From Mobula hypostoma (lineage: Eukaryota), in contig NC_086100.1 of assembly GCF_963921235.1 (NCBI RefSeq), forward strand, positions 48,484,001 to 48,548,000: a DNA stretch of 64,000 nt, in the 5' to 3' direction. A program made the position numbers and the translations under genes. Positions 1-64,000 of the stretch are shown one piece after another. Positions within the stretch are counted from its first letter, which is position 1, and the number at the start of each line of letters is the position of its first letter. The notes beneath the pieces were generated by a model. It was not told the DNA's origin. It made no database searches and saw only the letters and a list, made by a program, of their open reading frames with translations.

Positions 1-865
1 CCATGCTCCTGTCCTGCCATTCAATAAGTTTGCGGCTGTGCTGGCTATAACCACGGCAAGCTTTTCATTCCTTCCTCATCAAAAATATAGAGGGTTATGT
101 AATGACAGCGAGATACTGTATGCTATGTCATAAAAACTCTGGGAATTTTTTAACAGTTTGTAAAATTCCATGATCATATTTCATTGTGAAGATACATTTC
201 AAATATTCATATCAACACTTGTCTAACCAGTCATGTTTATAACTGTAAACTATAATGAGCCAAAGGTTAGGTATTCTTGGCTGCTTATTATACGAGAAAG
301 TGATCTGGATCACCAACCTCACACCAGCAGATAGCGCAGACCCAACAACTGTGACTGTGGCAAAAGGCATTTCTTTTGATCTCTCTCATGCTCTGGGGTT
401 TTGGCCTTTTCCTGTGCCGTAGTGCTCTGTGGCTATGACTCAATGATATATGACCTTGCCAGGGTCTCAGGAACTCTGCCTGGAAGGGTGTTGAAGGTAG
501 AAGCCTTTACCAAATGGTCAGGTTGCATCCTTCTGTACGTTTCGTGTTAATTTTGAATTGCTGGAATCACAGGAGAGAAATTGTAGTTTTGTTCATAAAC
601 TGTCACGATGTGTGCTGTCAACCTTGCAACCCAAGCATAGAGGAAAGACAGATTCGGATGTAGAGACATTGATGTAGATTTCATAAGAATTCTAACAGAA
701 CATCAGCGGCTCAGGCGAGCCACACCATGAAATATAACATTCTCAAATGAAGACCTTGTGATTAGTGCTAACCAGGCAACCGCTACAATAACACAGAGAC
801 CCCAAACCTATCAAAATAAACTTAACAAGTTTAAACAGGAAGCACCAGGAGACCACATTACAAAG

Positions 866-1118
866 TGTTATGCTTTGTGCCTTCAAAATATTAAACTAAT
901 TCAAAGGAAAACATGGGAGTCCAGGAATACAGGTCTAACTTCGAGTTTACTTTTAGCGAGGCATGAACCTATCATGTGGTAGCGTAATGATGTATGTAAT
1001 TCATGTATTTATACATATAACCCGTAATGCATTATTTAAACAAAAACTAATGCTTAATCAACCGGTATATATATTTACAGGATTATTCAAATATTAGTTA
1101 AATATTAAATACACAACA
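866..1118 (-). repeat. 3' LTR of Gypsy element
   Basis: TG..CA termini, adjacent polypurine tract; about 16 mismatches per 100 nt against the other LTR by eye. Confidence 0.9.
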
Positions 1119-1429
1119 GTCCTCCCTTCCTAGCTATAAGCTCAATAGAGAGTGTACCTCAACTATACACAGCAGTATATTATATAACTATCCTATGCAC
1201 ATCCGCAGCATAGTAAATTTTAAGTTGTCCCATTCAGGCCTAAAGATTTAATCGCTGTGGAGGATTTCTTACTCTTGTGGGATAACATCTTTCCTGTTAA
1301 GGGAGATCACTCTGCTTGACAGATGAGGCTTGTGGCTGTGAAACAATCTCAGACTCTGGGACCTCCTCCGTGGCGGTTGTGGGAGTTGACTCTGAGACTG
1401 CAGGAAGTCATTTTGACAGCGGTAGCTGC

Positions 1430-1968
1430 CTTCATTCTTCTAGTTTGTGCATCTTGACCTTGGGAAGGTGCACTTAGTTCATTGGAGTATTCACTAATCC
1501 TCCTATTGCTCCCTTTACGATTAAATCTCTCCTCTTGGTTTCCGTATCCACAACACAATCTGACGAATTCTCTGTTTTCATATTTCCATTCACACCTTTC
1601 TTTTTGCCCTTCCATTCATCCAGCTGGGCTTTGGTCTTTGCATCCACTTTTACAAGCAGCTTTTTGCCTCCCACTTGAAATTCACGCAATAACCTCAGTA
1701 CACACCAAGTAGATTCTGGTTCTTTATCAAAGCCGAATGATTGCAACTTTCCTGAAGCTCCTTGAATTCTCTTTCAGCTTAAAACCAAGCCACATTTCAT
1801 AAGTAATTGCCTGATTAACATGTCAGAATCTTTCTCAGATATGCGGCCCACAAAAACTGTTGTAGTCAGACCACTGTTTTTGTCACTTCCATGCTTCCTC
1901 TGAGCAGCATGGTCCTTCCTTGGTCTGATATGCTTTCCAATCAGAGACACAGAGATTGGCACCAACAC
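1430..1968 (-). pseudogene. rbm25: Processed (intronless) RBM25 fragment covering the RRM and flanks, captured inside the LTR element
   Basis: VLVP..IGKHI.PRKDH..TTTVFVGRISEKDSDMLIRQLLMKCGLVLS*KRIQGASGKLQSFGF-DKEPEST..LRLL..QVGGKKLLVKVDAKTKAQLDEWK..ETKRRD..KGAI../EYSNELSAPSQ matches the RBM25 N-terminal RRM region. Premature TGA at 1774-1776, a small deletion, and a frameshift near 1500. Confidence 0.93.
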
Positions 1969-3092
1969 CTCTTTGTTCTTTGTTTGACAACAACTCATGG
2001 GGTACAACATGGAGAACATTGTGGCATCATCCAGTACCTTTCTTAATTCACTTTCATTTGGTTTCGTTGCAGGGGATGTGGCATGCAAATGGAGGATGGA
2101 TCTCCATTCAAGTTGTAGTTGTTTCAGCCAATCATGCCCCCCACAATGCTGGTCCTCCTGTTTTTACCACATATAATCTCAATTTGGTTTGTTCATTGTT
2201 GTATTTCACTCTCACAAACGCAATTTTATCCAGTATAAGTTCTTAGGTGGATACCTGCAGGCTTCAGCTTAGTGTCTTTGAAATTCTTCTCAAACTCATT
2301 TTGTGGAACAACTGAACCAGTGACTAATTCAATTTTAATTAATTTGCTGTTCACTTCAGCTGTAAGCCATATTGGTTAGTTTTTGCATTGTAAAGCTCAA
2401 GATTACACCGTCCTTTGTCACTCCCATCATAATCAGATTTTTCATCAACAGCATGCAGATTAGTGCTCTCTTTGAAACTTGACTTTCTATCTTTTTAACT
2501 TCTCTGTGCAAACCAATTATTTTTGCCTCCCTGACATGCTCTTGGTATGTGTCCTACTTTGTTGCATTTTCTGCAAGTTTCACCTTTAAATCTACATTGG
2601 TCTGGTGTATGTGAGCCCCTGCCACAACGGTAACACTATTTGTTCAGCCTGGCCCAGTTCTGTTTAGACGTTATAATTTTATACATGCTCAGTTTCTTTC
2701 CTGACTGCAACACAGTTGCACCTCTGTCTGTTGTTTCCATTGAAACAGCGATATCAACTGCTCTTTTAAATATAAATTGTGCTTCAGTTAGGAGCCAATT
2801 GTGAATGCTATCTTGTAAGATTTCACAAACTAAACGATCTCTTAGTGTGTCATTAAGGTCATTGCTGAACTGACAATGTTCAGACAACCTCTTCAATTCA
2901 GCCATGTACGCTGAAATGGACTCCCCTTTTTTTTTAACTCTCCTTAGGTAGCCTAAAGCAGTCTGCAATCAACAATGACCTTGATTCTAAAAGTTCCTGC
3001 ATAACTTTTACAATATTAGCAAGGCTTATTTTGGATGGTTTGGTTGGAGCAATCACACTTCGAAGAAAACTATATGCCTTTAAACCCAATGC

Positions 3093-3631
3093 TGTCTAAG
3101 TGTCTAGGTACCATATCCAATGTGGACGTTGGTGACCATGATTTTCCATATAGGTCTATCCCTTGTTCTTTGGATAGCTTCCATTTCCTCAAAGTGTTGC
3201 CACCTGGCTAGGCTTTTGACGTACATAAGCCGAAGTCTTCCTCTAGGTTTGCTCCCCTCGATCTTTCAGAGAGTATGAGTTTTTCTAGTTCATCTTTCCG
3301 CATGATGTGTCCTAGGAATCTGAGTTGTCTTTCTCTTATTGTTGGTATGAGTGATGGAACTGCTTGGGCTCTTCTGAGAACTTCTTCATTTGATGTGTGT
3401 GTGGTCCATGACATTTTTAACATTCTCCTGTAGAACCATAATTCAGCTGCTTCTAGTCTCTTTTCCATTGCTGGGGAAATGGTCCAGCATTCACTTCCAT
3501 AAGTCAGGATAGAATAAATGTAGCATTGCAGCATTCTGTTTTTAGTGTACGTACTCATCTTTCTGTTAATATGATCTCTTGAAGAAATAGAAGAGGAGAA
3601 AAGCTTATATCATGGTGTAAAACAAACGATC
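3093..3631 (-). mobile_element. 5'-truncated RTE-clade LINE nested in Gypsy gag
   Basis: ORF 3208-3558 has LTYGSECWT..LEAAELWFYRRMLK..W..NEEVL..RQLRFLGH; 11-bp TSD AAACCCAATGC (3082-3092, 3632-3642). Confidence 0.88.
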
Positions 3632-3735
3632 AAACCCAATGCACTTAGCAAAATTGGTTCCTGTTTCTCATTTGCTATTTCATTCAAAATTTGCTGAATT
3701 AGCTCATGATACATATTTTGTGTAATCAAATGTGT

Positions 3736-5680
3736 TAATTCAGAGGAGGACAAAGGGCTTAATTAGGAAGAGGAAAAAAGATTATGAGAGAAAACTGGCA
3801 GGGAACATAAAAACTGACTGTAAAAGCTTTCGTAGATATGTGAAAAGGAAAAGACTGGTAAAGACAAATGTAGGTCCCCTACAGACAGAAACAGGTGAAT
3901 TGATTATGGGGAGCAAGGACATGGCAGACCAATTGAATAATTACTTTGGTTCTGTCTTCACTAAGGAGGACATAAATAATCTTCCAGAAATAGTAGGGGA
4001 CAGAGGGTCCAGTGAGATGGAGGAGCTGAGCGAAATACATGTTAGTAGGGAAGTGGTGTTAGGTAAATTGAAGGGATTAAAGGCAGATAAATCCCCAGGG
4101 CCAGATGGTCTGCATCCCAGAGTGCTTAAGGAAGTAGCCCAAGAAATAATGGATGCATTAGTGATAATTTTTCAAAACTCGTTAGATTCTGGACTAGTTC
4201 CTGAGGATTGGAGGGTGGCTAATGTAACCCCACTTTTTAAAAAAGGAGGGAGAGAGAAACCGGGGAATTATAGACCGGTTAGCCTAACGTCGGTGGTGGG
4301 GAAACTGCTGGAGTCAGTTATCAAGGATGTGATAACAGCACATTTGGAAAGCGGTGAAATCATCGGACAAAGTCAGCATGGATTTGTGAAAGGAAAATCA
4401 TGTCTGACGAATCTCATAGAATTTTTTGAGGATGTAACTAGTAGAGTGGATAGGGGAGAACCAGTGGATGTGGTATATTTGGATTTTCAAAAGGCTTTTG
4501 ACAAAGTCCCACACAGGAGATTAGTGTGCATACTTAAAGCACACAGTATTGGGGGTAAGGTATTGATGTGGATAGAGAATTGGTTAGCAGACAGGAAGCA
4601 AAGAGTGGGAATAAATGGGACCTTTTCAGAATGGCAGGCAGTGACTAGTGGGGTACCGCAAGGCTCAGTGCTGGGACCCCAGTTGTTTACAATATATATT
4701 AATGACTTGGATGAGGGAATTAAATGCAGCATCTCCAAGTTTGCGGATGACACGAAGCTGGGTGGCAGTGTTAGCTGTGAGGAGGATGCTAAGAGGATGC
4801 AGGGTGACTTGGATAGGTTGGGTGAGTGGGCAAATTCATGGCAGATGCAATTTAATGTGGATAAATGTGAAGTTATCCACTTTGGTGGCAAAAATAGGAA
4901 AACAGATTATCTGAATGGTGGCCGATTAGGAAAAGGGGAGGTGCAACGAGACCTGGGTGTCATTATACACCAGTCATTGAAAGTGGGCATGCAGGTACAG
5001 CAGGCGGTGAAAAAGGCGAATGGTATGCTGGCATTTATAGCGAGAGGATTCGAGTACAGGAGTAGGGAGGTACTACTGCAGTTGTACAAGGCCTTGGTGA
5101 GACCACACCTGGAGTATTGTGTGCAGTTTTGGTCCCCTAATCTGAGGAAAGACATCCTTGCCATAGAGGGAGTACAAAGAAGGTTTACCAGATTGATTCC
5201 TGGGATGGCAGGACTTTCATATGAAAAAAGACTGGATGAACTAGGCTTGTACTCGTTGGAATTTAGAAGATTGAGGGGGGATCTGATTGAAACGTATAAA
5301 ATCCTAAAGGGATTGGACAGGCTAGATGCAGGAAGATTGTTCCCGATGTTGGGGAAGTCCAGAACGAGGGGTCACAGTTTGAGGATAAAGGGGAAGCCTT
5401 TTAGGACTGAGATTAGGAAAAACTTCTTCACACAGAGAGTGGTGAATCTGTGGAATTCTCTGCCACAGGAAACAGTTGAGGCCAGTTCATTGGCTATATT
5501 TAAGAGGGAGTTAGATATGGCCCTTGTGGCTACGGGGATCAGGGGGTATGGAGGGAAGGCTGGTGCAGGGTTCTGAGTTGGATGATCAGCCATGATCATA
5601 ATAAATGGCGGTGCAGGCTCGAAGGGCCGAATGGCCTACTCCTGCACCTATTTTCTATGTTTCTATGTTTCTATGTTTCT
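3736..5680 (+). mobile_element. Young 5'-truncated CR1 LINE with uninterrupted 614-aa ORF2 remnant (RT), nested in Gypsy gag
   Basis: ORF 3732-5576 with KSPGPDG, YRPVSLTS, YLDFQKAFD, GVPQGSVLGP and FADD; 3' tail (TTTCTATG)n at 5652-5680. Confidence 0.95.
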
Positions 5681-5960
5681 TCTAACGTAGCCAGCCATCT
5701 CCGTTTCTTTAATGATTATTATCACCTGATACTTATTATTTATAAACCCTTGAATTCACCCTTTCTCTTTATGAACCCATGAATTCTTCCGTTTTGACTT
5801 TTTTTAAAACTTGATCGCATCTTTCCTTCTGAAGAACATGCGCAGTGCTACTTTTCACTTAACCATTCCTCACTGCGCAGTCCTTTTAACTTGAGAGTCT
5901 CACTGTAATTGACGAGTCAGTAGCCGCCTCGGGCTCATTTTAAAAACACCTCATCACCTA

Positions 5961-6232
5961 TGTTATGTTCTATGCCTTCAAAATATTAAACTATTTGAAA
6001 GGAAGACACAGGCGTCCGGAAATGCTGGTCTAACTTCGAATTTACTTTCATCGAGGCATGCACGTATCTCGTGGTAGCATGCACGTATCTTGTGGTAACA
6101 TAATGACTTATGCAACTCCAATGTTTATACCTACAACCTGTAATCAATTAGTTAAATAAGCAAAAATGCTTAATCAACCAATATATCCATTCAGGATTAC
6201 TAAAATATTATTGAAATATTAAATATACAACA
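5961..6232 (-). repeat. 5' LTR of Gypsy element
   Basis: TG..CA termini, adjacent PBS-like sequence, internal ~21-bp tandem duplication (~6056-6098). Confidence 0.9.
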
Positions 6233-6399
6233 CAAAGAGTGAGTCGCTAGAGAAAAAACATAAGAAACTCTATATGATTAATGACTCTCATAAAACAACA
6301 ATTAACCCAATTCAGGTGATCAAAAAATCTCAGAGCCCAGCAGTCTCCGGCTCCCTGCACATGCCCGAAGTGCTCAATAAATAAACACAGAAGAAGGAA

Positions 6400-9240: not shown

Positions 9241-10467
9241 GCTGTGTACATACATCTACTGATGCTTCTGGACACATCTTCAGTGATGTTCCTGGAATCA
9301 TCAGGTGTTTCAGGCCTTTCAACATCATACAACCTCCTCCAAGTGACCCAGCCGGGACTGATCAGACCCCAGCTTGTGTCCAGATGGCTAGCTACTTATG
9401 ACTCCATGGCTCCCCTCTTTTGAGCCACAGCCATCTTGAGGCCCTCTCTGCCGCATCGGTGGTACTGCGGATGGCTCTCCTCTTCCTCTCTCCCTCGATG
9501 CCCAAAATGCTGAAGGCTCTAACTAAAGAACGGGCTACGAATCCCCTACAACCAACCTCCACTGGGAGACACCTCGCTCTCCATCCAGCCTGCTGACAGT
9601 TGCTGACCAGTCCTGCGTACTTGGAGAGCTTCCTTTCAAAGGCCTCTTCCAAGCGATCTTCCCATGGGACTGTCAGCTCCAGCAGCACCACTTGCTTAGT
9701 CGACTCAGACACTAGGACAATGTCTGGTCGCAGGGTGGTGGCTGCGATATGGTTGGGGAACTTCAGCTGCCCTTCGAGGTCCACCGACAGCTGCCAGTCC
9801 CTTGCAGAGGTCAGAATGCCTGCAGATGTTCTTTTGGCAGGTATTGGCTGCTCCCCAGCTCTGACAAAAGCAATGGTCTGCTTGGAGGGTCGGTACCGCT
9901 TCGCCCACTCAACTCCTGCGCTGACGGCTTCAGCGATGGTCTTCAGGACCTGATCATGCCTCCACCTGTACCGTCCCTCACCAAGTGCCCTTGCACAGCC
10001 GCTGAGAATGTGGTCCAGGGTTCCTCGCTTGGAGCACAGTGGGCACGCAGATGACTCTGCCTTGCCCCATGTGTGCAGGTTTGATGGGCTTGGAAGCACA
10101 TCGTACACTGCCTGGACGAGAAATTGGATGTGGTGTGGTTCGGCTTTCCAAAGATCAGCCCAGGTCACTTTCCTCTCAACCGCATTCTCCCATCTTGTCC
10201 AAGCTCCCTGTTGCTTCATTCCCACCGCCTTGCAGGCTCTCATCTCCTCCACTACTGCTCTCACCTCCTCCTGAACTAGACAACGCCTTTCCTTCCCTCT
10301 GGTGTCCATTTGGGGAGTTAGGAAGGATCCTAGCCCAGCTCGGCCTTGTGTGACCACTCCCACCAGCCTCCTGTGACGCAGCCTCGCCTCTGCCTCCTGA
10401 ACAGCTTCCTCTGCCCTCCACTTCCTGCCAGAACTTACTTGGATCCCTGCTCTAGCCACCTTCGGGT
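9241..10467 (-). mobile_element. Hero-clade (RLE endonuclease) non-LTR retrotransposon, 5'-truncated
   Basis: 360-aa ORF with CPLC..H..C knuckle, RHD, TTLRPDIVL, ELTVPWE and K..KY (PD-D/ExK endonuclease), followed by a 3'UTR. Confidence 0.9.
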
Positions 10468-10584
10468 AAAACAAATTAATAAATAAGTGTTTATATAATG
10501 ATAGTATTGGACACCAGAATCATGTGGAGAGTCCATTTCTCAAACAATCCAAGAGTTTTGCAGTCTTGAACAGCTACAACTTTT

Positions 10585-16901: not shown

Positions 16902-19130
16902 ACTGAAGGAAGAGTGAGTAAGGGATTTGAAAGTTGGAAGGGGAGGGGGAGATCCAAAATGATAGGAGAAGACAGGAAGGGGAGGGATGGAGCCAAGAGC
17001 TGGACAGGTGATAGGCAAAAGGGATATGAGAGCGTCATGGGACAGGAGGTCCGGGAAGAAAGACAAGGGGGGGTGGGAACCAGAGGATGGGCAAGGGGTA
17101 TATTCAGAGGGACAGAGGGAGAAAAAGGAGAGTGAGAGAAAGAATGTGTGTATAAAAAAAAAGTAACAGATTGGGTACGAAGGGGAGGTGGGGCATTAGT
17201 GGAAGTTAGAGAAGTCGATGTTCATGCCATCAGGTTGGAGGCTACCCAGACGGAATATAAGGTGTTGTTCCTCCAGCCTGAGTGTGGCTTCATCTTTACA
17301 GTAGAGGAGGCCGTGGATAGACATGTCAGAATGGGAATGGGATGTGGAATTAAAATGTGTGGCCACTGGGAGATCCTGCTTTCTCTGGCGGACAGAGCGT
17401 AGGTGTTCAGCAAAGCGGTCTCCCAGTCTGTGTCAGGTCTCGCCAATATATAAAAGGTCACATCGGGAGCACCGGACGCAGTATATCACCCCAGCCGACT
17501 CACAGGTGAAGTGTTGCCTCACCTGGAAGAACTGTTTGGGGCCCTGAATGGTGGTAAGGGAGGAAGTGTAAGGGCATGTGTAGCACTTGTTCCGCTTACA
17601 CAGATCAGTGCCAGGAGGGAGATCAGTGGGGAGAGATGGAGGGGACGAATGGACACGGGACTCGCGTAGGGAGCGATCCCTGCGGAATGCAGAGGAGGGG
17701 GGAGGGAAAGATGTGCTTAGTGGTTGGATCCCGTTGGAGGTGTTCCGTGCCTATTCTGGTATCTTTTCCTTCGCTACATCGACGACTGCATTGGCGCTGC
17801 TTCCTGCATGCATGCAGAGCTCGTTGACTTTATTAACTTTGCCTCCAACTTTCACCCTGCCCTCAAGTTTACCTGGTCCATTTCCGACACCTCCCTCCCC
17901 TTTCTAGATCTTTCTGTCTCTGTCTCTGGAGACAGCTTATCCACTGATGTCTACTATAAGCCTACTGACTCTCACAGCTATCTGGACTATTCCTCTTCTC
18001 ACCCTGTCTCTTGCAAAAACGCCATCCCCTTCTCGCAATTCCTCCGTCTCCACTGCATCAGCACTCAGGATGAGGCTTTTCATTCTAGGATGAGGGAGAT
18101 GTCTTCCTTTTTTAAAGAAAGGGGCTTCCCTTCCTCCACTATCAACTCTGCTCTTAAACGCATCTCCCCCATTTCACGTACATCTGCTCTCACTCCATTC
18201 TCCCGCCACCCCACTAGGAATAGGGTTCCCCTGGTCCTCACCTACCACCCCACCAGCCTCCAGGTCCAACATATTATTCTCCGTAACTTCCGCCACCTCC
18301 AACGGGATCCCACCACTAAGCACATCTTTCCCTCCCCCCCCCCGCATTCCGCAGGGATCGCTCCCTACGCAACTCCCTTGTCCATTCGTCCCCCCCATCC
18401 CTCCCCACTGATCTCCCTCCTGGCACTTATCCTTGTAAGCAGAACAAGTGCTACACATGCTCTTATACTTCCTCCCTTACCACCATTCAGGGCCCCAAAC
18501 AGTCCTTCCAGGTGAGGCGACACTTCACCTGTGAGTTGGCTGGTGTGATATACTGCGTCCGGTGCTCCTAATGTGGCCTTTTATATATTGGCGAGACCCG
18601 ACGCAGACTGGGAGACCGCTTTGCTGAACACCTACGCTCTGTCCGCCAGAGAAAGCAGGATCTCCCAGTGGCCACACATTTTAATTCCACATCCCATTCC
18701 CATTCTGACATGTCTATCCACGGCCTCCTCTACTGTAAAGATGAAGCCACACTCAGGTTGGAGGAACAACACCTTATATTCCGTCTGGGTAGCCTCCAAC
18801 CTGATGGCATGAACATCAACTTCTCTAACTTCCGCTAATGCCCCACCTCCCCCTCGTACCCCATCTGTTACTTTTTTTTTATACACACATTCTTTCTCTC
18901 ACTCTCCTTTTTCTCCCTCTGTCCCTCTGAATATACCCCTTGCCCATCCTCTGGGTGCCCCCCCCCGTCTTTCTTCCCGGACCTCCTGTCCCATGATCCT
19001 CTCGTATCCCCTTTTGCCTATCACCTGTCCAGCTCTTGGCTCTATCCCTCCCCCTCCTGTCTTCTCCTATCATTTTGGATCTCCCCCTCCCCCTCCAACT
19101 TTCAAATCCCTTACTCACTCTTCCTTCAGT

Positions 19131-35754: not shown

Positions 35755-38670
35755 CAAAGCCCTCCCCACCATTGCACACATTTACACGGAGCACTGCCAT
35801 AAGAAAACAGCATCAATCACCAAGAATTCCCACCATCCAGGCCATGCTCTGTTCTCACAACTGTCATCAGGCAGGAGGTACAGGAGCCTTAGGTCCCACA
35901 CCACCAGGCTCAGGAACAATTATCCTACAGTCATCAGGTTCCTGAACCACCCTAAATAACTACACTCACCACAACTTTGAAATGATTCTGCAACCTACAG
36001 AAATCACTTTCAAGTCTTCTGCAACTCATGTTCTCAGTATTACTTATTTTTTATTTGCATAATTTGTCCGGCTCAGTCGTGTCCTCGCAGACCAACATAC
36101 TGAGGATCTGCAAGTCCTTCTATGCCAGTCTGTATGATGAAAAGGCCACAGAATCCACAGCCTCCTGCAACTTCCTGTCGTCTATCACGCAGGTCTTAGA
36201 CGACGGCAAGCAGGAGAGTCTGGATCAGCCACTGACCCTAGATGAGCTGACAGGCTCCATCCGTTCCTTTGAGTCAAGTAAGACTCCCGGAAGCGACGGC
36301 TTACCGGCTGAGTTGTACTCGGCTCTGTGGAACTGGATGGGCCCTGACCTGCTGGAAGTGTACAACGCTATGCTTCTGGCCAGCAGCATGTCAGAGTCCA
36401 TGAGGAAGGGCATCATCACCCTCATCTACAAGCAGAAGGGGGAAAGGGAGGACATTAGAAATTGGAGCCCATCTCTCTCCTGAATGTGGACTACAAGATC
36501 CTGTCCAAGGCTATCGCCAACAGGGTCAAGTCTGCTCTAGGACAGGTGATCCACCCGGACAAAACCTGTGCTGTACCGGGCAGGAAGACCTCAGACAGCC
36601 TCGCGCTGCTGAGGGTCACCATGGCCTATGTGCAGGACAGGGGGGTGGACGCCTGCCTGGTCAACTTGGACCAGGAGAAAGCCTTCAACGGGATATTGCA
36701 CACGTACATGGCGGACGTGCTCTCCAAAATGGGATTTGGGGAAGGAATCCAGAATTGGATTAGACTGCTCTACACGGACATCCGTAGTGCAGTCCAGGTC
36801 AACGGGTGGGAAACAGATAGCTTTCCCATCAGGTCCGGAGTCAGGCAGGGCTGTCCCCTCTCCCCTGTCTTGTTTGTTGACCGCATAGATCCCTTTGCGG
36901 AAGCCATCAGGAGGGATGAGGGCATAAGAGGGGTGACGCTGCCAGGCAGTGGAGGGACCCAAATGAAAACCTTCCTGTACATGGACGACGTCACCGTCTT
37001 CTGCTCTGATCCAAGATCAGTTCGCAGGTTGATTGACATCTGCAAACAGTTCGAGCTAGCGTCAGGGGCCAGGATCAACCGCACGAAGAACGAAGCCATG
37101 CTTTTCGGCAACTGGCCCGACCGATCCAGTGTCTCCTTCACCATCAGGTCTGACCACATGAAGGTGTTGGGGATCTGGTTCGGAGGGGCCGAGGCGTGCA
37201 ACAAGAACTGGCAGGAGCGGACTGCCAAGGTGAAACAGAAACTGGGACTGTAGGGAGGAGGCTCCCTGTTGATGATGGGCAAGAACCTGATCATCAGGTG
37301 TGAGGTGCTCTCAGGGCTGCTGTACTTGGCGCAAGTGTGGCCTGTCCCCCACTCCTACAGCTCGGAAATCACCCGAGCTGTCTTCAGATTCGTCTGGGGA
37401 TCCAAGATGGAGCGGGTGAGACGGATTGTCATGCACAAGTCCCTGGACAATGGGGGCAAGAACGTCCCCAATATCGCCCTCAGACTGATGGCCAGCTTCG
37501 TGTGTGGCTGCATCAAGTTGTGTGTAGAACCAGGGTATGTGGGCACCAAGTACCACTATCTGCCCAGGTTCTACCTGTCGCCCTGGTTACGAAGGATGGG
37601 TCTGGCTCCACTCCCGCGCAACCCCCCAGTCAGCTGGTCATTGCCGCCATACCCGTCCTTCGTAGAAGAGTTCTTCCAGGAGAACGCCTTTGACCACAGG
37701 GCCATCAGGCAGTGGTCAGCACATAATGTCCTGCAGGCACTGCAGGAGAAGGATGTGATGGACATAGTGGCGTGGTTCCCTGAGCAGACAGTCCAGTTCA
37801 TCTGGCAAAATGCCTCATCGCCAGATCTCACCAACAGGAACCAGGACCTTGCCTGGCTGGCAGTGAGAGGGGCCCTCCCAGTCAGATACCTCCTGTACGC
37901 CCGGAATGTCGTCTCCGCACCCCACTGCCCACGGAAGGACTGCAGCGAGGAGGAGTCTGTGACCCACCTCTTTGCACACTGTCAGTTCGCAGAGAGGGTG
38001 TGGAGGAGGATGGACGGGCTAGTGTCACATTTCATCCCCAGCAGCTGCGTAACAGAGGACTCTCTGATCTACGGGCTGTTCCCAGGGACACACACAGAGC
38101 CCAACATCCGGTGCTGCTGGCAGATCATCAACTCGGTGAAGGATGCTCTTTGGTCAGCCTGAAACTTGATGATCTACCAGCACATGGAGATGTCCGCGGC
38201 AGAATGCTGCCGACTGGCACATTCTCAGCTGCAGGAGTACGCACTGAGGGACGCACTGAAACTTGGTGCAGCCACCGCAAGGGCCTGGTGGGGAAGGACC
38301 ACGGTATAGGTTTCTTCGCCCGCGGGAGTGGGAGGGGTCGGGTGGCGGGTAGTATACCCCTCAACAATGATGTGGTAAGGTGAACAACTGGAGTGCCACG
38401 TGGGTGGCCATAAGTATGGATATGTACAGCCTATGATGGAAACATATGTAAAGGATGGAAAGTTATTGAGTGGTTTATTGTATATAATTTTATTTTTGAA
38501 TAAAGTTTATTTTGAAATAAAAAAAATTGTCCTCTTTTGCACATTGTTTGTCAATACTTATGCATAGTTTTTTCCATAAATTCTATTGTATTTCATTATT
38601 TTCCTGTAAATGCCTGCAAGAAAATAAATCTCAATGTATATATGGTAACATATATGCACTTTGATAATAG
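35755..38670 (+). mobile_element. Rex1-like 3' end (35755-36063, 38527-38670) split by a Tx1 insertion
   Basis: KKTASITKNSHHPGHALFSQLSSGRRYRSL; the 3'UTR resumes after the Tx1 poly(A). Confidence 0.7.
36070..38526 (+). mobile_element. Tx1/L1-clade LINE, 5'-truncated ORF2 (RT + zinc finger), disrupted
   Basis: KTPGSDGLPAE, PISLLNVDYKIL, LDQEKAF, GVRQGCPLSP, YMDD, CPR..C..ESVTHLF..C; AATAAA + poly(A) at 38499-38526; TSD TTGTCC (36064-36069, 38527-38532). Confidence 0.92.
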
Positions 38671-60818: not shown

Positions 60819-61099
60819 ATTTACTGATGACTTTCCAAACAAGTTAGCTTATAATTTAATCAGCTTAAATTCCATTCATAATTTTTCAAAATGTATGTGA
60901 CTGGGCAACAGCTGATGTACAGTATATTGTGTTTATTATTTCTCACCTAAGTTCCAGGCAATGACCACATGTTGCATGGGAGCCCCTGATTTGTGGCAGT
61001 ATTGCCATAAACGGGACCTCAGTATTTTAGTCAGTGGGAGTGTCTTTGTGATAGTGTGGTCTGTGCAACAATTATTGAGTTGATTCATCTGGTTTTATT

Positions 61100-64000
61100 A
61101 TCATATGTTTAGTGGCAAAATCTGCAAGAACAATCGTGGCTTAAAGATCCACCAAGCGAGGATGAAGTGTTTGGCGGGAGCAGGAGCAGCACAACGCGCA
61201 GGTGTCCAACCTGGTGAGACGAAAGAGGGGCCAAGTCCGGAGTCACCCCATAGTGCCCGGAACCGCCAAGTGTTGCAAACTAATCCCTCTAACATCAAGT
61301 CTGACAGGAGGAGGATCCAGTGGCCTGCAGCTAACATGACTTCACTGTGGAAGCAGTTTGATGAAGGTGTTAACCAAATTCTGGAGGCAACGGCGAAGGG
61401 AGGGGTCGATAGGAAGCTGCAAGCCATGACAACAATTATTGTTAGTATCGCAGCTGAACGGTTCGGAGAAGAGGAGAAGGAAGGCTCCAAAACATCTTAC
61501 TCGAAGAACCAAAGAGCATTGAGGATCCACAACATCAGGCAGGAGATGAAAGCGCTGAAGTCCCAATACAAGGAGGCAGGAGAAGAGGAGTGCATTGGCT
61601 TGGCCCAGCTGATGTGTATACTACGAAAGAGGATCAGGGTCCTCCGCTGGGCAGAGTGGCAGCGGAGGTGGCGTCGGGAAAGGGCTGGAAAACGTGCTGC
61701 CTTTATCACCAACCCCTTCAAGTTCACCAAGGAGTTGCTGGGGGAAGCACAGTGGGAAACTGGTCTGTTCGCAGGAAGAGATAGACCAACATCTGAAGAA
61801 GATATATAATGATCCTGAAAGACAGCAGGAGTTGGGAGAGTGCGACATCCTAATAGACCCACCTGAACTGGATGTGCAGTTCGACATGTCAGAGCTGCAA
61901 CTAAAGGAAGTCAGAGAGGTCGTCCGCAAAGCAAGGGCAAGCTTGGCTCCAGGACCAAGCAACACCTCGTACAAAGTGTACAAGAACTGCCCCAAACTCC
62001 TGCTGCATCTGTGGAAGATCCTGAGAACCTTTTGGAGAAGGGGGAAGATCCCAGAACAGTGGAGAGTGGCTGAAGGGGTGTGGATCCCGAAGGAGGAAAA
62101 TGCCACCCAGATAGATCAGTTTCACATCATCTCCCTGCTGTGTGTCGAGGCGAAGATCTCCTTCAGTTCTGTTTCTAACCGGCTGTGCACCTACTTAGCA
62201 AAGAACACCTATATTGATACATCAGTCCAGAAGGGTGGCATTTCAGGGATGCCGGGCTGTCTGGAGCACATCGGTGTGGTGACACAGCTCATCAGGGAGG
62301 CCAGAGAGAACAAGGGCAACCTGTCAGTGTTGTGGCTCGACCTGGCAAATGCATATGGCTCCATTCCGCACAAGCTGGCGCAGCTCACACTGGCCAAATA
62401 TCACGTCCCCAGCAGAATCAGAGACCTTATCGCTGATTATTACAGCAACTTCAGGGTGGGGGTCTCTTCAGGAACAATTACATCAACCTGGCACAAGGTG
62501 GAGGTCGGCATCATCACAGGGTGCACTATCTCAGTGACACTGTTCTCCCTAGCCATGAACATGCTCACTAAGTCAGCTGAACCAGAGTGCAGAGGGCCCA
62601 GAATGAATTCCGCTCAACGGCAACCACCTATCAGGGCATTCATGGATGACCTCACAGTCACCACAGAATCAGTCCCAGGCTGCCGGGGGATTCTGCAAGG
62701 GCTTGAAAATCTGGTGGAGTGGGCCCGGATGCGTTTCAAACCTGCCAAATCAAGATCGATGGTGCTGAGGAAAGGGATGGTGGAGAACAAGTTCCAGTTC
62801 AGCATCGCAGGCACAGCCATCCCAACCATCACAGAAAAGCCGGTAAAGAGCTAGGCAAAGTGTTTGACAGCTCTTTAAGGGACACAACATCCAGTCATGC
62901 AACCTGCACCAAGTTGGATGGCTGGCTGAAATCTGTGGACAAGTCTGGCCTACCTGGGAAGTTTAAAGCCTGGGTGTATCATCATGGCATTCTTCCCAGA
63001 ATCCTGTGGCCCCTCCTCGTCTATGCAGTTCCGATCTCGACAGTCGAAACCTTAGAGAGGAGGGTTAGCAACTACCTCAGAAGATGGCTGGGGCTGCCAA
63101 AAGGGTCTGAGCAGCACCACACCCTATGGACACCACAACAAACTACAACTGCCTTTCAAATCCTTGGAGGAAGAATTCAAGGTAACAAGAGCCAGAGAAG
63201 TGCTACAGTATAGGGACTCAAGTGACCCGAAGGTGGCTACAGCAGGGATCCAAGTGAGGACTGGCAGGAAGTGGAGGGCAGAGGAAGCTGTTCAGGAAGC
63301 AGAGGCGAGGCTGCGTCACAGGAGGCTGGTGGGAGTGGTCACACGAGGCTGAGCTGGGCTAGGATCCTTTCCAACTCCCCAAATGGACACCAGAGGGAAG
63401 GAAAGGCGTCGTCTAGTTCAGGAGGAGGTGAGAGCAGTAGTGGAGGAGATGAGAGCTTGCAAGGCGGTGGGAATGAAGCAACACGGAGCTTGGACAAAAT
63501 GGGAGAATGCAGTTGAGAGGAAAGTGACCTGGGCTGATCTTTGGAAACCAGAACCACACCACATCCAATTTCTCATCCAGGCAGTGTATGATGTGCTTCC
63601 AAGCCCATCAAACCTGCACACATGGAGCAAGGCAGAGTCATCTGCATGCCCACTGTGCTCCAAGCGAGGAACCCTGGAGCACATCCTCAGCGGCTGTGCA
63701 AGGGCACTTGGTGAGGGACGGTACAGATGGAGGCATGATCAGGTCCTGAAGACCATCACTGAAGCCATCAGCGCAGGAGTTGAGTGGGCGAAGCGGTCCC
63801 GACCCTCCAAGCAGACCATTGCCTTTGTCAGAGCTGGGGAGCAGCCAATACCTGCCAAAAGAATATCTGCAGGCATCCTGACCTCTGCAAGGGACTGGCA
63901 GCTGTTGGTGGACCTCGAATGGCAGCTGACGTTCCCCAACCATCTCCTAGCCACCACCCTGCGACCAGACATTGTCCATATATCTGAGTCTACTAAGCAA
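61100..64000 (+). mobile_element. Hero-clade non-LTR retrotransposon, long frameshifted copy running off the window end
   Basis: N-terminal GKICKN.RGLKIHQARMKC zinc finger; APGP, WLDLANAYGSIPH, GIITGCTIS and FMDD RT motifs; CPLC knuckle, RHD and LRPD; several frameshifts and stops; close match to 9700-10467. Confidence 0.92.

What the first reader, a model, noticed from the sequence alone, without database searches (positions are those of the whole stretch)
866..6232. Gypsy LTR element whose pol core is replaced by a spliced RBM25 RRM segment, in frame with gag-protease
Seen in sequence: intact LTR architecture (TG..CA, TSD CAAAG, PBS-like site, PPT), gag with two zinc knuckles, and a protease remnant. 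The post-protease linker HATSPATKPNESELRKVLDDAT reads without a frameshift (ORF 2088->1774) through a short spacer into RBM25 VLVP..VFVG.ISEK..KCGLVLS. After ~540 nt the sequence returns to the integrase C-tail near 1430, around an AGAAGAA/AAGG purine patch. No RT, RNaseH or integrase core remains. Established: template switching onto co-packaged mRNA explains retroviral gag-onc capture and LTR-mediated retroposition. Inference: the ancestor encoded a Gag-PR-RRM fusion and was mobilised in trans, possibly a whole family spreading a splicing-factor RRM. This copy is dead (stop codon, frameshift, visibly diverged LTRs).
Basis: partly seen in the sequence, partly recalled or inferred. Interest (0 to 1): 0.85.

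Follow-up and report, generated by a model that had tools for sequence, protein, structure and literature searches.

The report
Jumping-gene family carrying spliced RBM25
This is one dead copy of a jumping-gene family in which the copying enzymes are replaced by an intron-free piece of the host splicing-factor gene RBM25; the swap likely happened once, by a reverse-transcription slip, and the hybrid then spread to at least 570 and likely 1,300-1,900 places, a known kind of accident on an unusually large scale, with no sign that the cargo kept a function.

Summary
Confirmed, with corrections. Window 866-6232 (minus strand) is a decayed Gypsy-type LTR element whose RT, RNase H and integrase core (about 2.5 kb in relatives) are replaced by spliced host rbm25. 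The host gene was located (G000:C1, 99.79-99.84 Mb). The window copy spans four exon junctions. Both switch points carry microhomology: 7 nt in exon 3 and 9-10 nt in exon 10; shorter forms, including this copy, arose by later internal deletions. The chimeric junction occurs at 570 sites against 1,246 pol-type sites; recapture estimates give 1,300-1,900 copies. Column counts indicate that the founder read gag-protease-RBM25 in one open frame. Copies decayed neutrally (omega-like 0.95-1.05), form a star tree, and none examined looks domesticated. Runs coded as two or three other organisms hold junction-spanning contigs. The mechanism is known (Tan et al. 2016); the scale is far above the cases I read. 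The scan noted this family before on other pieces of the same genome.

The parts
6233..6237 (.). target-site duplication (CAAAG on +), 5'-LTR side
   Evidence: single CAAAG at the empty site in 4 of 5 related repeats
5961..6232 (-). 5' LTR, 272 bp, TG..CA
5949..5960 (-). degenerate primer-binding-site-like sequence
   Evidence: position and likeness to the TGG-starting sites of other copies; tRNA not tested
5681..5698 (-). gag start (ATG at 5698, MAGY...)
   Evidence: matches the ATG column 416 codons upstream of the junction in uninterrupted copies
3741..5680 (+). nested LINE, later insertion into gag; 616-aa frame 3726-5576 with an RT domain (the label CR1-like is recalled)
   Evidence: (RVT_1 E 3e-34); ends approximate
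3633..3740 (-). gag fragment between the two nested LINEs
   Evidence: ends approximate
3093..3632 (-). second nested LINE fragment, 133-aa frame 3609-3208 (the label RTE-like is recalled)
   Evidence: absent at this place from the 5 copies aligned
2400..3092 (-). gag remnant with two CCHC zinc knuckles (2635-2594, 2575-2534)
   Evidence: translation
2027..2399 (-). aspartic protease remnant and protease-RT linker
   Evidence: the homologous stretch of relative L093 matches gag-asp_proteas at E 9e-5, below the curated cut-off
2020..2026 (-). 5' switch point: 7-nt microhomology TGCCACA shared by the Gypsy linker and rbm25 exon 3
2017..2026 (-). last 10 nt of rbm25 exon 3 (my numbering; exon 2 holds the start codon)
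1969..2016 (-). 48-nt frame-preserving rbm25 cassette exon (75% identical to host)
1798..1968 (-). rbm25 exon 4 (85%); RRM begins about 1857
1740..1797 (-). rbm25 exon 5 (90%); in-frame stop at 1776-1774 in this copy
1585..1739 (-). rbm25 exon 6 (87%, 6-nt deletion); RRM ends about 1657
1431..1584 (-). rbm25 exon 7, partial (83%, 4-nt frameshifting deletion)
1132..1430 (-). integrase C-terminal tail and 3' untranslated part of the Gypsy element
   Evidence: matches the post-integrase tail of pol-bearing relatives
1120..1131 (-). polypurine tract
   Evidence: read directly
866..1118 (-). 3' LTR, 253 bp, TG..CA
861..865 (.). target-site duplication (CAAAG on +), 3'-LTR side

Best explanation
This is a decayed copy of a large non-autonomous Gypsy-type family in which spliced rbm25 mRNA (end of exon 3 to start of exon 10) stands in place of RT, RNase H and the integrase core, likely put there once by two microhomology-guided template switches and likely copied afterwards by the enzymes of pol-bearing relatives. 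Shown: intron loss, replacement of pol, shared junctions, microhomology at both ends, copy number, neutral decay. Inferred: an rbm25 mRNA carrying the cassette exon was co-packaged in a particle; reverse transcriptase jumped from the Gypsy RNA to the mRNA in exon 10 and back in exon 3; the product kept both LTRs, PBS and PPT, so it integrated and was transcribed and packaged again. Further jumps between purine-rich repeats of exons 7-10 likely made the shorter forms. The founder likely read gag-protease-RBM25 in one frame, ending out of frame in the integrase tail, but the RBM25 part was likely a passenger: being short and packageable is enough to explain the spread.
For: Host gene and exon map. 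Host match starts at mRNA positions 149-173 (the exon 3 end) in 66 of 70 copies examined, and 69 of 70 have Gypsy sequence upstream. Pol-type relatives share the first 7 nt of the junction and then diverge (280 hits). The 3' microhomology of 9-10 nt is in exon 10. Chance of 7 or more shared nt at a random junction is about 7e-4, of 9 or more about 3-6e-5. Relatives with the same LTR carry PR-RT-RH-IN in Gypsy order. Junction 22-mer: 570 hits, reversed control 0; exon-5 21-mer: 571 hits including the host exon, control 0; estimates 1,330, 1,596 and 1,900. TSDs differ between copies; 5 of 12 with both ends aligned match at 4 or 5 of 5 bases. Open founder frame: 0 of 199 host codon columns have a stop or gap as commonest state; 1 of 416 gag-protease columns does, at a CpG-decay hotspot, against 46 and 36 in the other two frames over 447 columns. 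Neutral decay: omega-like 1.04-1.05 in the host part (60 copies) and 0.95 in gag-protease (38 copies).
Against: A single origin is not shown by the tree: capture copies need 3 label changes in the gag-protease tree (shuffled mean 11; supported branches force only 1). TSDs are unrecognisable in 4 of 12 copies and weak in 3 more. Stop codons are somewhat fewer than the neutral expectation (133 against 162-163 in the host part; 225 against 267 in gag-protease; the same deficit, 62 against 82, in non-capture relatives). The open frame was tested only through exon 7, not exons 8-10. All 20 pol-type relatives fetched are decayed; no intact helper was seen. A star tree leaves too few founder-lineage changes to test selection during the active phase.
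Confidence: 0.88

Rival explanations
1. The Gag-protease-RBM25 fusion protein, or the host-like RNA, gave the element an advantage (better self-packaging through the RRM, or escape from silencing), and this drove the amplification.
For: In-frame 5' junction with the complete RRM kept. The common deletions remove the exon 7-10 repeats and spare the RRM; 30 of 50 are multiples of three after a one-base offset correction. One capture reached 570 junction hits against 1,246 pol-type hits. Plant 'camouflage' ideas exist (PMC13317346, passages).
Against: Neutral decay. The 3 high-frequency non-CpG variants in the host part are all nonsynonymous. At 11 codon columns the family's commonest residue departs from a residue shared by the host and Heptranchias; most such base differences are CpG decay or split about evenly among copies. 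In-frame deletions are expected from codon-periodic purine repeats and from shared descent (11 copies share one deletion). Plain internal-deletion derivatives are also common among pol-type relatives.
Confidence: 0.12
2. A Gypsy element sitting in an rbm25 intron was joined to downstream exons by read-through and splicing, and only the 3' end was resolved by a template switch (the classic route recalled for retroviral oncogene capture).
For: The host match appears at first sight to begin exactly at the first base of the cassette exon. LTRs of this family lie 36-66 kb upstream of the first coding exon.
Against: The bases before the cassette exon match the end of exon 3, not the Gypsy linker, so the exon 3-cassette junction was already spliced, and the switch lies inside exon 3 at a 7-nt microhomology.
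Confidence: 0.04
3. A LINE-made rbm25 processed pseudogene inserted into an existing Gypsy element, and the locus was then multiplied by segmental duplication.
For: The genome is rich in LINEs, two of which sit in this copy. A few copies are near-identical with shared flanks (L012/L020, 1%; three on C76, about 2%).
Against: No poly(A) or inner TSD; about 2.5 kb of pol is replaced; the segment is an internal, 3'-truncated part of the mRNA; copies lie on many contigs with different TSDs and are about 20% apart.
Confidence: 0.02
4. One or more copies were domesticated as a host retrogene.
For: Junction-spanning contigs occur in two runs guessed to be RNA. 15 of the 150 best protein matches have no stop inside the match.
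Against: The best match is 80% identical with a stop, with no outlier. The 15 stop-free copies have a neutral synonymous share (0.22-0.31) and at most 63 open codons upstream of the junction. No database protein joins the two parts among 52 hits.
Confidence: 0.05

Closest known systems
LTR-mediated retrocopies of animals (Tan et al. 2016, Genome Res, PMC5131818; 12 passages and the Drosophila results section read)
   Same: Internal ORFs replaced by a partial spliced mRNA, microsimilarity at the switch points (median 6 bp there; 7 and 9-10 here), no poly(A), both LTRs kept, sense orientation, often in frame, further rounds as a non-autonomous element.
   Different: [quoted passage not shown] Here one capture reached at least 570 and likely 1,300-1,900 old copies, with a series of internal deletions, and appears in related organisms.
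Crocodilian ERV captures of KIT-ligand (CrocERV29) and nectin3 (CrocERV31) (PMC4299795; 12 passages read)
   Same: Host mRNA carried by a multi-copy LTR lineage in a vertebrate and shared between species.
   Different: Nine and six copies, full ORFs reported under purifying selection, placed between pol and env or replacing env in retroviruses. Here a Gypsy-type element, pol replaced, fused to gag-protease, neutral decay, about a hundredfold more copies.
Maize Bs1 (as reviewed in PMC13317346; passages read) and human HERV-K/FAM8A1 (as cited in PMC5131818)
   Same: LTR element carrying captured host gene segments; microsimilarity at the fusion points for FAM8A1.
   Different: Bs1 holds pieces of three genes in a plant; FAM8A1 is described as a single untranscribed pseudogene case. 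Primary papers not read.
gag-onc fusions of acutely transforming retroviruses (recalled, no call)
   Same: Host coding exons fused in frame to gag at the cost of pol; dependence on a helper.
   Different: No env seen, the cargo is not a known oncogene, and no benefit to the element is shown.

Membership tests
Ty3/Gypsy LTR retrotransposon (non-autonomous derivative) | Two LTRs with TG..CA ends and a short TSD | tested here: met
Ty3/Gypsy LTR retrotransposon (non-autonomous derivative) | Polypurine tract before the 3' LTR | tested here: met
   1120-1131
Ty3/Gypsy LTR retrotransposon (non-autonomous derivative) | PBS complementary to a tRNA 3' end | tested here: inconclusive
   TGG-starting motif in other copies, degenerate here; no tRNA comparison was run
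Ty3/Gypsy LTR retrotransposon (non-autonomous derivative) | Domain order protease-RT-RNase H-integrase in the parent family | tested here: met
   relatives with the same LTR, for example L093, L084, L100
Ty3/Gypsy LTR retrotransposon (non-autonomous derivative) | RT phylogeny places the parent among Gypsy rather than Bel/Pao or retroviruses | not tested
   no reference RT set was aligned; the Gypsy label rests on domain order and recalled motifs
LTR-mediated retrocopy (Tan et al. 2016) | Loss of parental introns | tested here: met
   4 junctions in the window copy, 7 in L026
LTR-mediated retrocopy (Tan et al. 2016) | Retrocopy replaces part of the internal ORFs | tested here: met
   about 2.5 kb of pol in L093 against 1.07 kb of mRNA
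LTR-mediated retrocopy (Tan et al. 2016) | Microsimilarity at both switch points | tested here: met
   7 nt and 9-10 nt
LTR-mediated retrocopy (Tan et al. 2016) | No poly(A) tail or TSD of its own | tested here: met
   junction sequences
LTR-mediated retrocopy (Tan et al. 2016) | Further rounds of retroposition of the chimera | tested here: met
   570 junction hits, dispersed, distinct TSDs
Functional captured gene or domesticated retrogene (CrocERV KIT-ligand type) | Purifying selection on the captured ORF | tested here: not met
   omega-like 1.04-1.05 over 60 copies; neutral synonymous share in the 15 stop-free best copies
Functional captured gene or domesticated retrogene (CrocERV KIT-ligand type) | Intact fused ORF in present-day copies | tested here: not met
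   0 of 60 without stop or frameshift in the host part; none of 17 further copies open back to gag; only a part of all copies was examined
Functional captured gene or domesticated retrogene (CrocERV KIT-ligand type) | Transcription | tested here: inconclusive
   junction-spanning contigs in two runs only guessed to be RNA
LINE-mediated processed pseudogene | 3' end of the mRNA with poly(A) and flanking TSD | tested here: not met
   segment ends in exon 10 at a microhomology

The most novel reading that the evidence does not exclude
The founder's in-frame Gag-protease-RBM25 fusion was expressed and useful to the element: the host RRM or host-like exons improved packaging or shielded the RNA from silencing, letting one capture grow to about a third of all junction-bearing copies of its family and seed over a thousand sense copies of a splicing-factor mRNA that could feed small-RNA pressure on rbm25. 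With the SUDS3 and EIF4ENIF1 captures noted by earlier agents in this genome, this would make one Gypsy lineage a recurrent vector of host gene-regulator mRNAs in cartilaginous fishes.
Probability: 0.12. Interest if true: 0.8.

Novelty: new variant of a known kind. Interest (0 to 1): 0.5.

Why it matters
It is a clean, fully resolved vertebrate case of LTR-mediated mRNA capture: parent gene, helper family, both switch points and the later deletion series can all be read. Its scale, over a thousand copies from one capture, is about a hundredfold above the animal cases I read. It shows that retrocopy counts per gene in cartilaginous fishes can reflect transposon amplification of a single capture rather than many LINE-driven events, which bears on surveys that tie retrocopy abundance to non-LTR elements (bioRxiv 10.64898/2026.06.26.734816, passages read). 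The copies also preserve an old record of an rbm25 isoform with a 48-nt cassette exon. No new function is shown.

Tried and rejected
Pfam scan of 9 window frames found only the nested LINE RT; the split RRM halves and the decayed gag scored nothing. The solved-structure search gave 1 irrelevant hit. The PWI family search returned three loci that did not match RBM25; a search with the RBM25 C-terminus found the gene. The gag protein search found nothing among 112 candidates. A search of 1.84 billion representatives with the chimeric frame gave 52 hits, all on the RBM25 side; 8 were inspected and none carried Gypsy sequence. No run was on record as RNA, so expression is not decided; summed contig depth is not a copy number and is used only as a rough hint. 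Automatic TSD calling misplaced ends; one search used only the 12 copies with both termini aligned. Deletion lengths are one base too long (offset error, corrected in the text); 50 of 69 copies had both anchors. Dating: LTR-LTR K2P median 0.228 (16 copies, 0.148-0.291; window 0.229). The pedigree rate of 7e-10 per generation (PMC10587355, passages) gives about 1.6e8 generations, which is implausible, so no age in years is given. A splice-based 5' junction was considered and rejected. A domesticated copy was looked for among the best protein matches and not found. Literature: 'RBM25'+'retrocopies' 0 papers; 'RBM25'+'gypsy' 1 unrelated paper; 'RBM25'/'retrotransposon'/'shark' none of the 20 listed of 673 mention RBM25; RBM25 absent from the main text of two preprints. 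Their supplements could not be seen and may list RBM25 among retrocopy parents. Repeat libraries such as Repbase or Dfam were not searchable.


Full report
Observation. The element lies on the minus strand at 866-6232. The LTRs are 5961-6232 (272 bp) and 866-1118 (253 bp), both TG..CA, with 202 of 251 aligned bases identical. CAAAG flanks both ends. The target is itself a repeat (872 candidates, 40 scored), and 4 of the 5 other copies fetched carry one CAAAG at the empty site, so the duplication is real. A purine tract lies at 1120-1131 and a degenerate PBS-like site at 5949-5960. The gag ATG is at 5698. Two later LINE insertions interrupt gag: about 3741-5680 on the plus strand, with a 616-aa RT frame (RVT_1, E 3e-34), and about 3093-3632. 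Without them the element is about 2.85 kb. Two CCHC knuckles and a protease remnant follow. The frame 2163->1774 runs from the protease linker into RBM25 without a shift.

The cargo. The frame 1773->1474 hits RBM25 (233 hits of 338 candidates; best E 4.6e-36, 79% to a Heptranchias perlo protein), so the host is likely a cartilaginous fish. The host gene lies at G000:C1 about 99.79-99.84 Mb. The window copy holds the last 10 nt of exon 3 (2026-2017), a 48-nt cassette exon (2016-1969), exons 4, 5 and 6, and most of exon 7 (to 1431), at 75-90% identity, with four introns missing (exon numbers are mine). The cassette exon has canonical splice sites and keeps the frame. It is also present in two annotated Heptranchias isoforms and in an unnamed Logan protein that joins exon 3, the cassette and exon 4. 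The RRM (on the Heptranchias protein) maps to about 1857-1657.

The family. A DNA search with 1240-2400 gave 7,919 candidates; all 40 scored, the window included, span the gag-protease/rbm25 junction. A 21-mer from exon 5 matches 571 places with up to one mismatch, one of them the host exon; the reversed control matches 0. All 40 of the listed exact hits that I fetched are family copies. The chimeric junction 22-mer matches 570 places and the pol-type version 1,246; neither pattern cross-matches the other group (0 of 68 and 0 of 20). Recapture gives 1,900 (12 of 40), 1,596 (10 of 28) and 1,330 (12 of 28) copies, with intervals from about 900 to 3,400. Of 12 copies with both termini aligned, 5 have TSDs matching at 4 or 5 of 5 bases, 3 are weak and 4 unrecognisable; the recognisable ones all differ. 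The pol-type count includes many internally deleted derivatives.

Switch points. Pol-type relatives share TGCCACA with the end of rbm25 exon 3 and then continue into RT; capture copies continue into the exon 3 end and the cassette exon. The host match starts at this point in 66 of 70 copies. The junction keeps the frame. At the other end the longest copies (L026 spans exon 3 to exon 10) return to the integrase tail at GAGAAGAAA, 9-10 nt shared between exon 10 and the Gypsy tail, out of frame with integrase. Random junctions reach 7 or more shared nt with probability about 7e-4 and 9 or more with about 3-6e-5. Of 50 copies measured, 28 have lost nearly all of exons 8-10, 11 of them by the same 450-nt deletion, and 21 keep 53-425 nt. 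The window copy lost slightly more. About 2.5 kb of pol (L093) was replaced by 1.07 kb of mRNA. Relatives with the same LTR carry protease, RT, RNase H and integrase in Gypsy order; all 20 fetched are decayed.

Reading frame and selection. Counting column by column over 60 copies, none of 199 host codon columns has a stop or a gap as its commonest state, and no insertion is shared by more than 4 copies. Over 38 copies, one of the 416 gag-protease columns between the ATG and the junction has a stop as commonest state (16 of 34 copies), and it behaves as a CpG-decay hotspot; the other two frames have 46 and 36 such columns. The founder therefore likely encoded one Gag-protease-RBM25 frame of roughly 830 residues (about 680 in the commonest short form); exons 8-10 and the tail were not tested this way. 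After insertion, copies decayed neutrally: omega-like 1.04-1.05 in the host part and 0.95 in gag-protease. Stops are somewhat under-represented in all three sets. The apparent dN/dS of 0.15 between family and host mostly reflects synonymous change in the host gene since capture; this is inferred from the 22 synonymous differences, 19 of them shared by 80% or more of copies, while only 3 of 12 nonsynonymous differences are near-fixed and 6 are CpG decay. The tree is star-like (terminal branches sum 6.5, internal 0.37), so selection during the active phase cannot be tested with this sample. A single origin is allowed but not shown by the gag-protease tree (3 label changes, shuffled mean 11); the shared junctions carry that claim. 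No copy looks domesticated: 0 of 60 are intact in the host part; the best protein match is 80% with a stop; the 15 stop-free matches among 150 have neutral synonymous shares and at most 63 open codons upstream of the junction. No database protein joins both parts (52 hits).

Age and spread. LTR pairs differ by a median K2P of 0.228 (16 copies). I give no age in years, because the only rate I read (PMC10587355, passages) yields an implausible figure. Among the 32 pieces listed of about 88,000, contigs bridging the 5' junction occur in runs coded as organisms C and H (probably DNA, kind not on record) and A and B (guessed RNA). This suggests the family predates their split; transcription is not established.

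Mechanism. Shown: intron loss, pol replacement, shared junctions with microhomology, dispersed copies, neutral decay. Inferred: co-packaging of the mRNA, two template switches during reverse transcription, mobilisation in trans, later deletions by jumps between purine repeats. Rivals: a useful fusion (0.12), a domesticated copy (0.05), a splice-based 5' junction (0.04), a LINE retrocopy with segmental duplication (0.02).

Comparison and novelty. It meets every tested feature of the LTR-mediated retrocopies of Tan et al. 2016 (PMC5131818; passages and one results section), including further rounds as a non-autonomous element. It differs in scale and age. Crocodilian ERV captures have nine and six copies and purifying selection (PMC4299795; passages). 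I found no paper describing this family; supplements of the preprints and repeat libraries could not be checked. The scan's own notes describe the same family at least four times on other pieces of this genome, and SUDS3 and EIF4ENIF1 capture families as well; those notes are not independent support, and I did not test the other families. Verdict: real, a known mechanism at unusual scale, no function shown. Interest 0.5.

Noticed in passing
window 3726-5576 (+): The nested LINE keeps a 616-aa stop-free frame with an RT domain, so it is much younger than the element it interrupts.
   Followed up: partly
G000:C1:99832586-99832633 (L040): A 48-nt frame-preserving cassette exon of rbm25; its last 14 codons are identical in protein to Heptranchias isoforms, and I did not see it in the five bony-vertebrate RBM25 proteins viewed. 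Some isoforms add four residues through an upstream acceptor.
   Followed up: partly
window 501-865 and 6233-6380: The element sits inside another, unidentified interspersed repeat (872 candidates, about 80% identity).
   Followed up: partly
L122 (G000:C2:71645850-71650650): One copy carries two host segments in tandem, a short form followed by a second junction and exon 9-10 pieces, as from recombination between two element RNAs.
   Followed up: no
L158-L160 (G000:C76, 4.50-5.08 Mb); L012 and L020 (C91): Near-identical copies with shared flanks (about 2% and 1% apart): segmental duplications within the family. Differences among the C76 copies are mostly nonsynonymous.
   Followed up: partly
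G000:C1:99876650-99876890 and 99906403-99906635: Two LTRs of this family lie 36-66 kb upstream of the first coding exon of rbm25.
   Followed up: no
L082-L101: Many pol-type relatives carry large internal deletions of their own (for example L088, L091, L094, L096, L098, L101), so non-autonomous derivatives are common in this family.
   Followed up: partly
window 9392-10519, 17721-18515, 36459-38162, 61084-62854: Other long frames that look like non-LTR or Penelope-type retroelement fragments (labels recalled; not scanned).
   Followed up: no
literature: A 2026 preprint lists MIPOL1, SUDS3, SDF2L1, SLU7 and ZNF276 as top retrocopy parents in cartilaginous fishes; some may be amplified LTR captures like this one.
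   Followed up: no
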